Below are positions 51,556-53,729 of a stretch of 55,266 nt of DNA, one piece after another. Below the pieces are notes generated by a model that saw only the letters and a program-made list of their open reading frames with translations, ran no database searches and was not told the DNA's origin. A program made the position numbers and the translations under genes. Origin of the DNA: a virus; the IMG/VR virus record IMGVR_UViG_3300037244_000023; one strand, 5' to 3'. Within the stretch, counting starts at the first letter, position 1; each line of letters starts with the position of its first letter.

Positions 51556-51583
51556 TTGACATGACCCATCCAAACCCGATACT
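51556..51583 (+). promoter_or_regulatory. Sigma70-like promoter (TTGACA-16-GATACT) in front of the ORF-free RNA locus
   Basis: Read directly, 20 nt after the stop of the 51258-51536 gene. Confidence 0.45.
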
Positions 51584-51928
51584 GGTTAAGCAACAGATCA
51601 TTCTCAACCCTTGGTAGTCAGGCCAACGAGTTCACCGTATTGCACCGAAAGGGGCAACGACTGCACGGGAAACCGTGCTCCAGCTGGAGCAATCCAGCAT
51701 TTGTGTAGCCGGGGCAACTCGGCATCTCGCAGGACGTGACTGGGCGTATCCCATGTCTGGGTTGGCATCCACAATACAAATGCCCCGTTGCCATATTTCT
51801 CCAAGGGTTCCATTCAGTTCTTTCACAATTCCCCGGCAGTCATGTGGTTGGTTACTTCTTTGGTAGAAAAACACCAACCGCTAGTTTCCTCCGGGTCAAG
51901 AATGTCACAGGGTAGCCACGGAAAGCGG

Positions 51929-52001
51929 TTCATCGTAGCTCAGCTGGTAGAGCGAAAGCCTTGTAAGCTTTAAGTCCCTGGTTCAATTCCAGGCATCCCC
52001 G
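51929..52001 (+). tRNA. tRNA-like element (Thr-type UGU anticodon arm) with an unpaired acceptor stem; probable tRNA-mimic module of a Y RNA, or a pseudo-tRNA
   Basis: D arm GCTC-AGCTGGTA-GAGC, anticodon arm AAAGC-CTTGTAA-GCTTT and T arm CCTGG-TTCAATT-CCAGG are all perfect. The acceptor strands TTCATCG / CATCCCC give only 1 of 7 pairs, and no CCA is encoded. Confidence 0.55.
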
Positions 52002-52043
52002 CGAGGGGTACCCCGCTCCCAATTTTCTCCCTGTGATCTTCTC

Positions 52044-52066
52044 GGCCCCCAAAAGGGGCCTTTTTT
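52044..52066 (+). terminator. Rho-independent terminator
   Basis: Stem ggcccc/ggggcc, 5-nt loop, then TTTTTT. Confidence 0.85.
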
Positions 52067-52076
52067 ATGGAGCAGT

Positions 52077-52256
52077 ATGAAAGCCATGAACGAAACCCCT
52101 AAACAACGCAAGCAGATTCAGGGGATGCAGAAGTTCGGCAGCGTTAACTTGTCAGCTTTGCATCTGTTGCGATCCAGATACACCCCAATCTCCAGAACTG
52201 GCCAATCCACCATGGGACGCATCAAGGCTCATGGCCGTCATCACAAACACATCTAG
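52077..52256 (+). CDS. Small basic protein (59 aa) immediately upstream of the TROVE gene
   Basis: GGAG lies 4 nt upstream. Translation is MKAMNETPKQRKQIQGMQKFG...HGRHHKHI. It is one residue below the track cutoff. Confidence 0.4.
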   Translation: MKAMNETPKQRKQIQGMQKFGSVNLSALHLLRSRYTPISRTGQSTMGRIKAHGRHHKHI

Positions 52257-52265
52257 GAGGGCAGT

Positions 52266-53729
52266 ATGGCACGATTCAATACTCCCACCCCAAAGATCAC
52301 CATCCCCACCACGGTTAACGTGGCTGGTGGATCAGCTTTCCAGGCAACCCCCAAGGCGGAATACGCCACGGCACTGTTGACGGCTCTTTGTGGCGATACC
52401 TACTACAAGACCGGCGACCAGTCGGCCAATCGGATCGCGGAACTGACCAAAACCATTGAAGACCCCCTGTTCGCGGCCAAGGCTGCGCTCTACACCCGCC
52501 ACAAGGGCTTCCTGCGAACCGTGTCCCATGTGGTTGCCGGGGAACTGGCACAGCGGGTCAAGGGCGAGAAGTGGACCCGCAAGTTCTTCGACAAGGTGGT
52601 GTTCCGGGTTGATGATGTGACCGAAATCCTTTCTTACTTTACTGGTAAGTATGGTAGGAAGAAGATCCCCAACGCACTCAAGGATGGTCTAGGCAATGCC
52701 CTGGTCCGGTTCGATGCCTACCAGTTGGCCAAGTACCGGGCTGACGGCAAGGATATGAACCTTTGGGATGCGGTCAACATCTGCCACCCCAAGGCCACTG
52801 AAGCCCTGTCTGCACTGATGAAGGGCACTCTGGCTGCGGCAGAAACCTGGGAAACCAAGGTTTCCGGGGCTGGCAAGGTTGAAGGGGATACCACCGCCAA
52901 GGCCGAGGCTAAGAAGGAAGCATGGACCGACCTTCTGACCAAGAAGAAGCTGGGCTACTTCGCCGCGCTGAGAAACCTGCGGAATATCGCCAAGGATGCC
53001 CCGGAAGCTATGGGCCTCGCCTTGGCGTTCCTGGTGGACCCCAAGCAGGTTGCCAAGTCCAAGGTACTGCCGTTCCAGTTCCAGACCGCGCTGGATGCGG
53101 TCAAGGGATTGGTCCAGGCTCCGGTGGTCCACGCGCTGAATGCGGCTATGGAAATCTCGGTGGCCAATGTGCCCAAGTTCCATGGCAAGACCTTGATCGC
53201 GGTGGATTGCTCGGGGTCCATGGATGGCAAGCCGATCCAGATTGCCACCCTGCTGGCAGCGGTTCTTTATAAGTCTCAGGATCAGGCAGATATCCTTCAG
53301 TTTGCCAACAACGCACAGCCGATCACCGGATTGAACCCCGGCGACACTATTAATAGCATTTCCAAGACCATTCTGCGCCAGAGAGTCAATGGTGGCACCA
53401 ACTTCCACTCCATTTTCCGCGCCATCGGGATCAAGAAGTATGATCGAATCATCATTCTGTCGGATATGCAGTCCTGGATGAAGCCGGATGGCTACTACTA
53501 CGCTTCTCCGGTCCATGTCCAGGATTCGTTCAAGGCATACTGCAAGGACATTGGTTCCACCCCTTACCTGTATTCGTTCAACCTGAATAGTGTGGATGGC
53601 ACTCTGCAATTCCCCGAGCCCAAGGTGTTCTGCTTGGCTGGCTTCAGTGATGCGATCTTGGGGGTGATGGGCCAGCTTGAGCAAGATCCCCAGGCATTGA
53701 TCCACGAAATTGAGTCTGTGGAGATATAA
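52266..53729 (+). CDS. rsr: Ro60-like TROVE-domain protein with a C-terminal vWA/MIDAS domain
   Basis: TROVE-type N-terminal region (GGSAFQATPK...CGDTYYKTGDQ...DPLFAAKAALYTRHKGFLRTVSHVV) and the MIDAS motif LIAVDCSGSMDG. AGGAGGG lies upstream of the ATG. Confidence 0.85.
   Translation: MARFNTPTPKITIPTTVNVAGGSAFQATPKAEYATALLTALCGDTYYKTGDQSANRIAELTKTIEDPLFAAKAALYTRHKGFLRTVSHVVAGELAQRVKGEKWTRKFFDKVVFRVDDVTEILSYFTGKYGRKKIPNALKDGLGNALVRFDAYQLAKYRADGKDMNLWDAVNICHPKATEALSALMKGTLAAAETWETKVSGAGKVEGDTTAKAEAKKEAWTDLLTKKKLGYFAALRNLRNIAKDAPEAMGLALAFLVDPKQVAKSKVLPFQFQTALDAVKGLVQAPVVHALNAAMEISVANVPKFHGKTLIAVDCSGSMDGKPIQIATLLAAVLYKSQDQADILQFANNAQPITGLNPGDTINSISKTILRQRVNGGTNFHSIFRAIGIKKYDRIIILSDMQSWMKPDGYYYASPVHVQDSFKAYCKDIGSTPYLYSFNLNSVDGTLQFPEPKVFCLAGFSDAILGVMGQLEQDPQALIHEIESVEI

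What the first reader, a model, noticed from the sequence alone, without database searches (positions are those of the whole stretch)
51556..53729. Phage-encoded Ro60/TROVE gene preceded by a promoter-to-terminator, ORF-free structured RNA locus (candidate Y RNAs)
52266-53729 encodes a 487-aa TROVE plus vWA(MIDAS) protein, a Ro60/Rsr orthologue. Ro60 proteins act with Y RNAs. In bacteria and some phages these are encoded next to the gene and carry a tRNA-mimicking module. Directly upstream there is about 730 bp with no credible ORF of 60 aa or more. It is bounded by TTGACA-16-GATACT (51556-51583) and a strong intrinsic terminator (52044-52066). Inside are two stem-closed modules. Module 1 (51606-51809) has a perfect 9-bp closing helix, a second helix with a single bulged C (ggCcaacg/cgttgcc), and a GAAA-tetraloop hairpin. 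Module 2 (51899-52042) encloses a tRNA-like element. A 59-aa basic ORF (52077-52256) lies between the terminator and the TROVE gene. The sequences do not obviously match the metazoan Ro-binding consensus, so this could be a divergent Y-RNA class.
Basis: partly seen in the sequence, partly recalled or inferred. Interest (0 to 1): 0.8.

Follow-up and report, generated by a model that had tools for sequence, protein, structure and literature searches.

The report
Phage Ro60 gene with Y-RNA array
A 55-kb phage genome carries a Ro60 RNA-binding protein gene preceded by one transcription unit that encodes three structured non-coding RNAs sharing a likely Ro60-docking stem; this is a new variant of the known Ro60/Y-RNA partnership, and one RNA has a previously undescribed 200-nt domain.

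Summary
The ORF at 52266-53729 is a Ro60 orthologue (TROVE HMM, DxSxS MIDAS, predicted fold matching solved Ro60 rings). The stretch between the promoter (51556-51583) and the terminator (52044-52066) holds three Y-RNA-like modules, not two. M1 (51606-51809) is a multi-hairpin domain with several GNRA loops. Mmid (51832-51895) is a long hairpin. M2 (51904-52037) is a tRNA mimic with D, anticodon and T arms but no acceptor stem. All three share a closing helix plus the motif GG-(bulged Y)-AG-YCA ... UUYCU-CC. This replaces the published GNCGAA motif.

Covariance models of M2 and Mmid gave 204 matches, all on the Ro60 strand. Matches at E 0.001 or better came from more than 50 loci and lie mostly just upstream of Ro60. 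The loci include Holophagaceae MAGs and the cultured phages CcrColossus and Xanthomonas MET23-P3. Covariation is strong: 33 of 35 and 14 of 15 pairs show compensatory changes. Population variants of this phage carry compensatory changes in M1 and in the docking helix.

Close relatives carry a YrlA-like cassette where this phage has M1. M1 itself was found only in this phage lineage and matches no Rfam family. No RNA expression or Ro60 binding was tested. Verdict: new variant of a known kind, moderate interest.

The parts
51556..51583 (+). Sigma-70-type promoter TTGACA-16-GATACT, preceded by an A/T-rich stretch. The predicted transcription start is near 51590.
   Evidence: Consensus scan gives 10 of 12 matches. 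The TTGACw and CCGATACT hexamers are conserved in L003, L004 and L009 while the spacer diverges.
51584..51605 (+). Short 5' leader containing the conserved AGAUCAUUC.
   Evidence: It is conserved in L003, L004 and L009 even where the first module differs.
51606..51809 (+). Module M1. A 204-nt Y-RNA-like module with a 9-bp closing helix, the docking motif GG-U-AG-UCA / UUUCU-CC, a second helix with a bulged C, and then a multi-hairpin domain with several GNRA loops (GAAA, GAAA, GCAA, GCAA).
   Evidence: MFE is -80.7 kcal/mol with z = -3.26. The motif scan finds it. In population variants the linked changes 51645C>T, 51652G>A and 51653G>T convert C-G to U-A and repair an A.G mismatch in the first GAAA hairpin. 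L009 lacks one hairpin through a clean 25-nt deletion. There is no Rfam match. The interior is found only in L008 and L009.
51810..51831 (+). Spacer 1 (CCAUUCAGUUCUUUCACAAUUC), a candidate processing site.
   Evidence: CCAGUUCUUUCACAAU is conserved in L003, L004 and L009 whatever the upstream cassette is.
51832..51895 (+). Module Mmid. A 64-nt long-hairpin Y-RNA-like module (YrlB/Yrn2-like) with CCCGG-C-AG-UCA ... UUCCU-CCGGG and the upper stem GGUUGGUU/ACCAACC followed by UUACUUC.
   Evidence: Fold z = -2.95. Model R2 gave 45 matches in other Ro60 loci, all on the + strand. In alignment A7, 96.9% of cells are paired against about 50% in slid controls, and 14 of 15 pairs are compensatory.
51896..51903 (+). 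Spacer 2 (UCAAGAAU), a candidate processing site.
   Evidence: YCAAGAAY is conserved in all six close loci.
51904..52037 (+). Module M2. A 134-nt tRNA-mimicking Y-RNA-like module. It has a 9-bp closing helix, the docking motif GGG-U-AG-CCA / UUUCU-CCC and helix GCGG/CCGC. It then runs UUCAUCG-UA, D arm, anticodon arm (7-nt loop CUUGUAA), T arm (UUCAAUU) and a GNRA-capped hairpin CCCC-GCGA-GGGG. There is no acceptor stem.
   Evidence: Rfam tRNA 51.3 bits over model positions 7-64 at 51935-51994. ARAGORN is negative. RF01053 Deinococcus Y RNA gives 21.6 bits full-length. Model R1 gave 159 matches, all on the + strand. In alignment A5, 94.1% of cells are paired against about 46% in slid controls, and 33 of 35 pairs are compensatory. 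RNAalifold recovers the fold independently. Population variants show G12-C124 going to G.U and then A-U (51915G>A with 52027C>T).
52044..52066 (+). Intrinsic terminator GGCCCC-CAAAA-GGGGCC + U6. It is probably leaky and would also form the 3' end of the RNA array.
   Evidence: Scan result: 6 of 6 G-C pairs followed by T6. The stem is invariant and the loop variable in L001, L003, L004, L005 and L009. In L009, L003 and L005 the Ro60 RBS and ATG follow the U-run within about 15 nt, so Ro60 expression needs read-through.
52077..52256 (+). Accessory 59-aa basic protein gene with a GGAG RBS at 52069-52072.
   Evidence: ORF. It is conserved in L001 and L004 with mostly synonymous or conservative changes. 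Homologues at 64-71% identity exist. It is absent from L003, L005 and L009. One homologue lies in a context without Ro60. It has no Pfam or PHROG family.
52266..53729 (+). Ro60 (TROVE + vWA/MIDAS) orthologue, 487 aa.
   Evidence: Pfam TROVE 57 bits. PHROG 850 'RNA-binding protein' at 5e-43. PDB phmmer hits phage phiLo Ro60 9KOP/9L5Y at 3e-16 and D. radiodurans Rsr 2NVO. The AF2 model has pLDDT 81, and Foldseek's top hits are 2NVO (TM 0.71), 9KOP, and Xenopus and human Ro60. The DCSGSM MIDAS motif is invariant in alignment A2.

Best explanation
The locus is a self-contained phage 'moron' that makes a Ro60 ribonucleoprotein.

**Transcription.** A sigma-70-type promoter at 51556-51583 drives one precursor containing three Y-RNA-like modules (M1, Mmid, M2). 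A leaky intrinsic terminator at 52044-52066 ends most transcripts after M2. Read-through supplies the mRNA for a 59-aa basic protein and for Ro60, so the RNAs are made in excess over the protein.

**Processing.** The precursor is cut at the two conserved spacers into three stable RNAs of about 204, 64 and 134 nt.

**Docking.** Each RNA docks on Ro60 through the same platform. This is the helix formed by its 5' and 3' ends, interrupted by a bulged pyrimidine and extended by two conserved pairs (GG-Y-AG / CU-CC). An asymmetric loop (YCA / A-UUU) and a second helix follow.

**Effector domains.** The distal domains differ and act as adaptors, as shown for Y RNAs in Deinococcus, Salmonella and Thermus phage phiLo, where the RNA tethers Ro60 to PNPase. 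M2 presents a tRNA elbow and an intact anticodon arm. Mmid is a plain hairpin. M1 presents a cluster of GNRA-capped helices. The phage would thereby redirect host RNA decay, quality control or repair during infection.

**Shown:** the anatomy, conservation, covariation, co-orientation with Ro60, and the Ro60 fold. **Inferred:** transcription, processing, Ro60 binding, and the identity of the partners.
For: **Protein.** TROVE HMM. Sequence and fold matches to solved Ro60 structures, including a phage Ro60 shown to bind upstream Y-like RNAs (PMC12135203).

**Shared scaffold.** The motif occurs three times in 430 nt and nowhere else in the 55-kb genome on either strand. Dinucleotide shuffles give a mean of 0.11. 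Model R1 aligns Mmid's scaffold onto M2's.

**M2 family.** 159 model matches, all on the Ro60 strand, mostly full-length and just upstream of Ro60, often in tandem. 33 of 35 pairs are compensatory, with 94% of cells paired against 46% in slid controls. RNAalifold recovers the fold independently.

**Mmid family.** 45 matches, all on the + strand. 14 of 15 pairs are compensatory. This includes A-U to G-C in the 2-bp extension after the bulge, which establishes the bulged helix.

**Micro-evolution within this phage's population.** Compensatory changes occur in an M1 hairpin. The docking helix of M2 shows the series G-C, G.U, A-U.

**Cassette logic.** L003 (Ro60 77% identical) has a YrlA-like module (Rfam RF02553, 40.9 bits) where the window has M1, between the same leader and the same spacer. 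L004, L001 and L003 together show 3-5 modules on one scaffold.

**Operon logic.** The promoter hexamers, spacers and terminator stem are conserved. In three relatives there is no room for a promoter between the terminator and the Ro60 RBS.

**Literature.** Bacterial Y RNAs lie next to Ro60 on the same strand, number at least two per species, are processed from polycistronic precursors, and include one tRNA-like RNA plus one long hairpin (PMC4201824).
Against: There is no expression, processing or binding evidence of any kind. Everything rests on sequence comparison.

The published Ro60-binding motifs (GNCGAAN0-1G, GGUCCGA) are absent. The window gives no hit to Rfam YrlA or Y_RNA and only 21.6 bits (cut-off 80) to Deinococcus_Y_RNA.

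M1's interior is known only from this phage lineage. Its assignment as a Ro60 ligand therefore rests on the shared scaffold and its position, plus a single compensatory event.

The terminator could be efficient, with Ro60 expressed in some other way. The covariation alignments were fitted to the models, though slid controls and RNAalifold agree with them.
Confidence: 0.75

Rival explanations
1. The structured region is only a cis-acting 5' leader or attenuator of the ro60 mRNA, for example Ro60 autoregulating by binding its own leader and modulating the terminator. It would not be a source of stable trans-acting Y RNAs.
For: The modules lie between the only recognisable promoter and the Ro60 RBS, with a terminator directly before the RBS in L009, L003 and L005. 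Co-transcription is therefore almost forced.
Against: In L001/L011, two scaffold modules sit about 1.2 kb upstream next to tRNA genes, separated from Ro60. In Holophagaceae loci, modules also occur downstream of Ro60. Three to seven different effector domains are hard to justify for an attenuator. Characterised bacterial Y RNAs are co-transcribed with rsr and then processed into stable RNAs (PMC4201824). The two roles are not mutually exclusive.
Confidence: 0.1
2. M2 and Mmid are Y RNAs, but M1 is an unrelated structured RNA with its own function that merely rides in the same transcript. Its resemblance to the docking scaffold would be inherited from the cassette it replaced.
For: M1's interior has no homologue outside L008/L009 and no Rfam match. 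It is much larger than any described bacterial Y RNA. Its tRNA-like features are gone apart from UUCACCGUA and a hairpin at the D-arm position.
Against: M1 keeps the complete scaffold: a 9-bp closing helix, GG-U-AG-UCA / UUUCU-CC, a second helix, and UUCAYCGUA. L004's first module is a shorter version on the same scaffold, with one compensatory change in helix 2. R1 matches the L009 copy full-length at 24 bits. M1 occupies the exact slot of a YrlA-like cassette in relatives.
Confidence: 0.12
3. The tRNA-like element is a decaying tRNA gene or a phage attachment-site remnant, and the surrounding 'structure' is incidental.
For: The Rfam tRNA model scores 51 bits. Real tRNA genes lie next to such arrays in L001, L004 and CcrColossus.
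Against: The acceptor stem is absent in all copies, while the non-tRNA outer helices covary in 32 sequences. All 159 matches are oriented with Ro60. The D, anticodon and T arms stay intact across Ro60 divergence down to about 35% identity, which is the opposite of decay.
Confidence: 0.02
4. The region encodes one or more small proteins, for example the 69-aa and 81-aa minus-strand ORFs.
For: Mechanical ORFs of 58-81 aa overlap the locus.
Against: The L009 orthologue differs by a 25-nt deletion and a 1-nt insertion, which change the frame across the middle of the ORF. L003 has no counterpart. No gene is called there on ten independent contigs. The substitutions are compensatory for RNA helices.
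Confidence: 0.01

Closest known systems
Deinococcus radiodurans Yrn1 (Rfam RF01053) with Rsr
   Same: M2 has the same order of elements. The terminal stem carries the Ro60 site. It is followed by a D-like region, an anticodon-like arm and a T arm, and then the 3' strand of the stem. A weak end-to-end alignment to RF01053 exists. The wider M2 family shares GGUUACUUC after helix 2 with the Yrn1 consensus. It is encoded upstream of Ro60 in a polycistronic unit (PMC4201824).
   Different: The score is 21.6 bits against a cut-off of 80. M2 has a full canonical D arm, a 5-bp anticodon stem with a 7-nt loop, and an extra GNRA hairpin after the T arm. Its docking motif is GG-Y-AG-YCA rather than GGGCCGAAG.
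YrlA of Salmonella, Mycobacterium and mycobacteriophages (Rfam RF02553)
   Same: It is a Ro60-adjacent, same-strand tRNA mimic closed by a stem, with a conserved YUAY-type element after the stem. Close relatives of this phage (L003, L001, L004) carry modules that hit RF02553 at 28-41 bits on the same scaffold.
   Different: The window itself has no YrlA hit at E up to 10. YrlA is circularly permuted relative to M2: T arm, acceptor-like stem-loop, D arm, with the Y stem in place of the anticodon stem (PMC4201824). The GNCGAAN0-1G motif is absent here.
Thermus phage phiLo Ro60 with Yrl1/Yrl2 (PDB 9KOP, 9L5Y)
   Same: A phage-encoded Ro60 with Y-like RNAs directly upstream. It is the best sequence match among solved structures. 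That study shows binding of the upstream RNAs and of host PNPase (PMC12135203).
   Different: It has two RNAs with a CGAA-containing bulge, and the passages read do not mention a tRNA-like module. Protein identity to the window Ro60 is only about 24%.
YrlB / Yrn2 long-hairpin Y RNAs
   Same: Mmid is a simple long hairpin encoded beside a tRNA-like Y RNA, as in all three characterised bacteria (PMC4201824).
   Different: No sequence similarity was tested or is expected. Mmid's family consensus (GG-Y-AG-UGAG ... GGUUACUUC ... UUUUCU-CC) is defined here only.
Caulobacter phage CcrColossus and Xanthomonas phage MET23-P3 Ro60 upstream regions
   Same: These are unannotated gaps upstream of the TROVE gene. 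By eye they contain about four or five stem-closed modules with the G-C version of the same scaffold (GG-U-GG-CGUAG ... GUUCC-CC). At least one module has YrlA topology.
   Different: The sequences are different and nothing like M1 is present. Ro60 is only about 31% identical.

Membership tests
Ro60 / TROVE protein family | TROVE (HEAT-repeat ring) domain recognised by the family HMM | tested here: met
   Pfam PF05731 at 57 bits against a cut-off of 23. PHROG 850 at 5e-43.
Ro60 / TROVE protein family | C-terminal vWA domain with a MIDAS DxSxS motif | tested here: met
   DCSGSM at residues 314-319 is invariant in 21 homologues. The vWA HMMs are only sub-threshold (17-21 bits). Foldseek aligns the vWA part to vWA domains and the whole chain to Ro60.
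Ro60 / TROVE protein family | Overall fold superimposable on solved Ro60 rings | tested here: met
   AF2 model with pLDDT 81 and pTM 0.74. The top 13 PDB hits are all Ro60: 2NVO at TM 0.71, then 9KOP, 1YVP and 9NEN.
Ro60 / TROVE protein family | Binds Y RNA on the outer surface and misfolded RNA in the central cavity | not testable with these tools
   This needs EMSA, RIP or a structure.
Bacterial/phage Y RNAs (sensu Chen et al. 2014) | Encoded within a few kb of Ro60 on the same strand | tested here: met
   M1, Mmid and M2 end 229-457 nt upstream of the Ro60 ATG on the + strand. All 204 model matches in the other loci searched are on the Ro60 strand.
Bacterial/phage Y RNAs (sensu Chen et al. 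2014) | 5' and 3' ends pair into a long stem that carries the Ro60 site | tested here: met
   Closing helices of 9, 5 and 9 bp. Helix 1 covaries at all 11 pairs in A5 and at 6 of 7 pairs in A7.
Bacterial/phage Y RNAs (sensu Chen et al. 2014) | 5'-strand motif GNCGAAN0-1G (bacteria) or GGUCCGA (metazoa) | tested here: not met
   Neither pattern occurs in 51590-52066. The aligned position carries GG-Y-AG-YCA. Relatives range from AGUGAG and GGCGUAG to GGUGAAG, so the motif looks like a degenerate relative of GNCGAA.
Bacterial/phage Y RNAs (sensu Chen et al. 2014) | At least one Y RNA per locus has a tRNA-like domain | tested here: met
   The M2 core scores 51.3 bits with the tRNA model. It has U8, A14, G18G19, a T loop UUCAAUU and C48.
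Bacterial/phage Y RNAs (sensu Chen et al. 2014) | Bound by Ro60 in vivo and dependent on it for accumulation | not testable with these tools
   No expression or binding data are available.
Rfam YrlA (RF02553) | Covariance-model score at or above the gathering threshold (69 bits), with T - acceptor-like - D order | tested here: not met
   No hit in window 51500-52300 at E up to 10. M2 has D - anticodon - T order. Relatives' first modules reach 28-41 bits.
Rfam Deinococcus_Y_RNA (RF01053) | Covariance-model score at or above the gathering threshold (80 bits) | tested here: not met
   21.6 bits at E 0.31, although the alignment is end-to-end (1-126) over 51905-52039.
tRNA (RF00005) | Complete cloverleaf including a 7-bp acceptor stem | tested here: not met
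   The model match covers only positions 7-64. ARAGORN finds no tRNA. The flanks pair instead into the Y-type stem.

The most novel reading that the evidence does not exclude
Ro60 in this clade, which spans Acidobacteriota, Verrucomicrobiota and their phages, uses a constant docking stem as a socket for interchangeable RNA effector cassettes. The cassettes include tRNA mimics in both circular permutations, plain hairpins and, in this phage, a new 200-nt GNRA-rich multi-helix domain (M1). They are shuffled between arrays by recombination at conserved leaders and spacers. On this reading M1 is a new class of Y-RNA effector domain that recruits a partner other than the tRNA-type modules do. It would give the phage a custom RNA-decay, RNA-repair or counter-defence RNP. 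The phage also encodes an RNA ligase.
Probability: 0.3. Interest if true: 0.7.

Novelty: new variant of a known kind. Interest (0 to 1): 0.5.

Why it matters
Ro60-Y RNA particles are conserved from bacteria to humans and are targets of lupus and Sjogren autoantibodies. How the variable part of a Y RNA chooses the partner of Ro60 is known for very few cases.

This locus and its relatives offer a natural series in which one docking stem carries very different distal domains in a single transcript. That makes the 'adaptor' model directly testable with one protein and a handful of RNAs.

The work also defines two covariation-supported RNA families not matched above threshold by any Rfam 15 model: an Yrn1-orientation tRNA mimic and a long hairpin. 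They occur upstream of Ro60 in more than 50 metagenomic, MAG and phage loci. The Ro60 recognition element can drift from GNCGAA to GG-Y-AG-YCA while keeping a bulged helix.

YrlA-type and Yrn1-type tRNA mimics coexist on the same scaffold in one array in relatives L001, L003 and L004. This bears on the published view that the two types evolved independently.

For phage biology, it adds a compact, promoter-to-terminator Ro60 RNP 'moron' in a 55-kb phage, outside the jumbo phages where Ro60 is usually noted.

Tried and rejected
- **blastn against phage records.** Searching 51540-52270 against 50,697 records found no match.
- **IMG/VR pattern scan.** The M1/L004-A 5' consensus GGYAGTCAGGN5GAGTTCAYCG gave 0 hits.
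- **nhmmer and blastn of M1.** Searched against all fetched loci, only the 94%-Ro60 relatives L008 and L009 matched. No broad covariation test of M1's interior was therefore possible.
- **Rfam.** At E up to 10, nothing overlaps M1. Over Mmid there is only a chance-level minus-strand lncRNA match (RF02114, E 2.1). M2 gave only the tRNA match and a weak Deinococcus_Y_RNA match.
- **Model R1 with filters off.** It did not recover the window's M1, because the insert is too long. It did align Mmid's scaffold.
- **The 59-aa ORF as a possible Ro60/Y-RNA cofactor.** It has no Pfam or PHROG family. It is absent from three close relatives. A 64%-identical homologue sits in a context without Ro60. It was rejected as a core component.
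- **tRNA-Gln at 296-419.** A full-length R1 match there turned out to be a normal tRNA with an acceptor stem. The GGAAGUCAUGUUAC just upstream has no matching 3' half.
- **A relaxed-motif hit at 49039-49097.** It lies inside an ORF, does not satisfy the pairing, and was treated as chance.
- **Unavailable literature.** The two reviews (Sim & Wolin 2018; Sim et al. 2020) and the supplementary tables of Chen et al. 2014 were not available. I could not check whether any locus of this clade was already on their lists.

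
Full report
**1. Observation.** The window is a complete or circularly permuted phage genome of about 55.1 kb. It has a 127-bp exact terminal overlap and encodes portal/adaptor, large and small terminase and an internal virion protein. 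At 52266-53729 (+) lies a 487-aa ORF. The 730 nt before it contain the promoter-like site TTGACA-16-GATACT (51556-51583) and the only all-G-C 6-bp hairpin followed by T6 in the neighbourhood (52044-52066). ORFs of 58-81 aa can be drawn mechanically through the locus. Their frames are broken or absent in relatives, and no gene is called there on ten independent contigs.

**2. The protein is a Ro60 orthologue.**
- Pfam TROVE scores 57 bits against a cut-off of 23, and PHROG 850 scores 5e-43.
- phmmer against the PDB finds phage phiLo Ro60 (9KOP/9L5Y, 3e-16) and D. radiodurans Rsr.
- An AlphaFold2 model (pLDDT 81) has Ro60 structures as its 13 best Foldseek matches, led by 2NVO at TM 0.71.
- The MIDAS motif DCSGSM is invariant among 21 homologues.
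- The nearest cellular homologues (52-57% identity) are in Holophagaceae and other Acidobacteriota MAGs, followed by Verrucomicrobiota. The best match in deposited phage genomes is only 42% identical.

**3. Anatomy of the RNA locus: three modules on one scaffold.**
- **M1 (51606-51809, 204 nt).** It closes with a 9-bp helix and contains hairpins capped by GAAA, GAAA, GCAA and GCAA (the first GAAA hairpin as re-paired by hand from the variants).
- **Mmid (51832-51895, 64 nt).** It is a long hairpin.
- **M2 (51904-52037, 134 nt).** It encloses a tRNA-like core. This has a D arm GCUC-AGCUGGUA-GAGC, a 5-bp anticodon stem with the 7-nt loop CUUGUAA, and a T arm with UUCAAUU. A CCCC-GCGA-GGGG hairpin follows. 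There is no acceptor stem.
- **Shared motif.** All three begin ...GG-Y-AG-YCA-helix 2 and end helix 2'-(A)UUYCU-CC.... The GG/CC pairs continue the closing helix, the Y is bulged, and AG pairs with CU.
- **Significance.** This signature occurs only here in the window, on the + strand. Dinucleotide shuffles give a mean of 0.11 occurrences against 4 observed combinations.
- After helix 2, each module continues with UUCAYCG or UUACUUC.

**4. Close relatives show an array of exchangeable cassettes.** Loci whose Ro60 is 74-94% identical keep the promoter hexamers, the leader AGAUCAUUC, both spacers, Mmid, M2 and the terminator stem. They differ in the other slots.
- L009/L008 have M1 minus one hairpin, through a clean 25-nt deletion.
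- L003 has, in M1's place, a module with T arm, acceptor-like hairpin and D arm. It hits Rfam YrlA at 40.9 bits.
- L004 has five modules: an M1-like 130-nt module, a tRNA mimic with a UUCG-capped anticodon arm, a YrlA-like module (28 bits), the hairpin, and the M2 type.
- L001 has two modules directly after two real tRNA genes, plus the hairpin and the M2 type next to Ro60.
- YrlA-type and Yrn1-type tRNA mimics therefore coexist on one docking scaffold in single arrays.

**5. Micro-evolution within this phage.** Ten near-identical contigs from other samples differ at few positions in the RNA locus.
- 51645C>T, 51652G>A and 51653G>T are linked. They turn UGCACC-GAAA-GGGGCA into UGCAUC-GAAA-GAUGCA, changing C-G to U-A and A.G to A-U in M1.
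- 52027C>T alone gives G12.U124 in M2's docking helix. Together with 51915G>A it gives A12-U124.
- These are compensatory changes at population scale, in M1 and in the proposed Ro60 site.

**6. The wider family.**
- **M2 model (R1, built from six sequences).** It gave 116 matches in 100 sources and 43 in a further 32. All are on the Ro60 strand, mostly full-length and just upstream of Ro60, with up to seven per locus.
- **M2 covariation.** In the 32 best matches, 94.1% of cells pair against about 46% when partners are slid. 33 of 35 pairs show double changes, and no shuffle out of 500 reaches the observed values. RNAalifold finds the same fold without the model's structure, with 27 of 28 pairs compensatory.
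- **M2 conserved features.** The anticodon-like loops are typically 7 nt with U33 and a purine at 37, but the 'anticodons' vary. The GNRA hairpin after the T arm is widely conserved.
- **Mmid model (R2).** It gave 45 matches, all on the + strand. 96.9% of cells are paired against about 50% slid, and 14 of 15 pairs are compensatory. In four sequences the A-U after the bulge becomes G-C.
- **Spread.** Matches include Holophagaceae chromosomal MAG loci, IMG/VR contigs, and cultured phages. CcrColossus and Xanthomonas phage MET23-P3 have about four or five modules (by eye) with GG-U-GG-(C/U)G(U/A)AG ... UUCC-CC in the unannotated gap before their TROVE genes.
- **Relation to GNCGAA.** These intermediate forms (GGCGUAG, GGUGAAG) link the window's AGYCA to the published GNCGAA motif. 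The published motif itself is absent here.

**7. Expression logic (inferred).** The promoter and terminator bracket the array. In L009, L003 and L005 the Ro60 RBS and ATG follow the terminator's U-run within about 15 nt. In the window the 59-aa ORF's GGAG follows it within 3 nt. The downstream genes must therefore be read through the terminator. This matches Mycobacterium, Salmonella and Deinococcus, where Y RNAs are cut out of precursors, in Mycobacterium and Salmonella precursors that include rsr (PMC4201824; Salmonella operon organisation recalled from the literature). The conserved spacers are candidate cleavage sites.

The 59-aa basic ORF is a real gene, with synonymous-type divergence in L001 and L004 and homologues. 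It is dispensable for the system, because it is absent in three relatives and is found elsewhere without Ro60.

**8. Mechanism and rivals.** The best-supported reading is a Ro60 RNP with three alternative Y-RNA adaptors. The known precedent is tethering of Ro60 to PNPase by the Y RNA, shown also for a phage Ro60 (PMC4201824, PMC12135203).
- A purely cis-regulatory leader is unlikely, because modules occur apart from Ro60 and in many different forms.
- A decaying tRNA gene and hidden coding sequence are excluded by covariation and by frame-breaking indels.
- M1 might be an unrelated passenger RNA. This cannot be excluded, because its interior has no relatives, but its scaffold and slot argue for Ro60 docking.

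**9. Comparison with what is known.** Phage Ro60 genes with adjacent Y-like RNAs were reported in 2014 (22 phages, including mycobacteriophages; PMC4201824), with CcrColossus named among them by the 2025 phiLo study (PMC12135203), which also characterised one biochemically. The kind of system is therefore known.

The new elements are these.
- The docking motif variant.
- A well-defined Yrn1-orientation tRNA-mimic family and a hairpin family that match no Rfam model above threshold.
- Multi-cassette arrays that mix both tRNA-mimic permutations on one scaffold.
- M1, a 200-nt GNRA-rich effector domain without relatives.

I could not read the supplementary lists of the 2014 paper or the two reviews. 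Some loci of this clade may already have been catalogued.

**10. Verdict.** This is a new variant of a known kind, with interest about 0.5.

Noticed in passing
window 1-127 and 55140-55266: There is a 127-bp exact overlap between the two ends of the window. The contig is therefore a circular or terminally redundant, probably complete, phage genome of about 55.1 kb. The Ro60 locus then lies about 1.7 kb upstream of the tRNA-Gln across the junction.
   Followed up: partly
window 312-386 (+), with 286-299: This is a bona fide tRNA-Gln (UUG) (70.9 bits; also called by ARAGORN). Just upstream lies GGAAGUCAUGUUAC, which resembles the 5' half of a Y-module scaffold but has no matching 3' half. It may be a vestige of a module next to a tRNA, as seen in L001 and L004.
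   Followed up: partly
window 7364-8488 (+): A 374-aa protein with an RNA ligase domain (Pfam PF09414, 5e-12; PHROG 548). The phage therefore carries an RNA-repair enzyme as well as the Ro60 RNP. No kinase/phosphatase partner was looked for.
   Followed up: no
window 9455-10857 (+): An ERF single-strand annealing protein and a YqaJ-like exonuclease lie side by side, forming a phage recombination module. It could underlie the cassette exchange seen in the RNA arrays.
   Followed up: no
window 50653-51536 (+): Two small proteins with N-terminal hydrophobic segments and coiled-coil-like tails (198 aa and 92 aa) lie directly upstream of the promoter. They have no family hits. The 92-aa one is conserved in L003. 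They may be lysis or membrane proteins.
   Followed up: no
L003 2602-2731, L001 1128-1259, L004 2399-2549: Relatives carry YrlA-topology modules (T arm, acceptor-like hairpin, D arm; Rfam RF02553 at 28-41 bits, below the cut-off of 69). They sit in the same arrays, and on the same docking scaffold, as Yrn1-topology modules. This bears on the published view that the two types evolved independently.
   Followed up: partly
L055 662-2267; L126 1128-2278 and 5375-5488; L128: Metagenomic locus L055 and Holophagaceae/Acidobacteriota MAG loci (L126, L128) have up to seven tandem scaffold modules around Ro60, some of them downstream of it. Real tRNA genes are interspersed.
   Followed up: partly
L164 1728-2325 (Caulobacter phage CcrColossus) and L162 1821-2420 (Xanthomonas phage MET23-P3): The unannotated gaps upstream of the TROVE genes of these cultured phages appear by eye to contain four or five stem-closed modules with GG-U-GG...UUCC-CC; models R1/R2 matched two or three in each. 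These phages could serve as experimental systems for the scaffold.
   Followed up: partly
L156/L157 about 540-980 (downstream of the small-ORF homologue P0124): A 64%-identical homologue of the 59-aa basic protein is followed by about 440 nt in which no gene is called, in a context without Ro60. The nature of this stretch is unknown.
   Followed up: no
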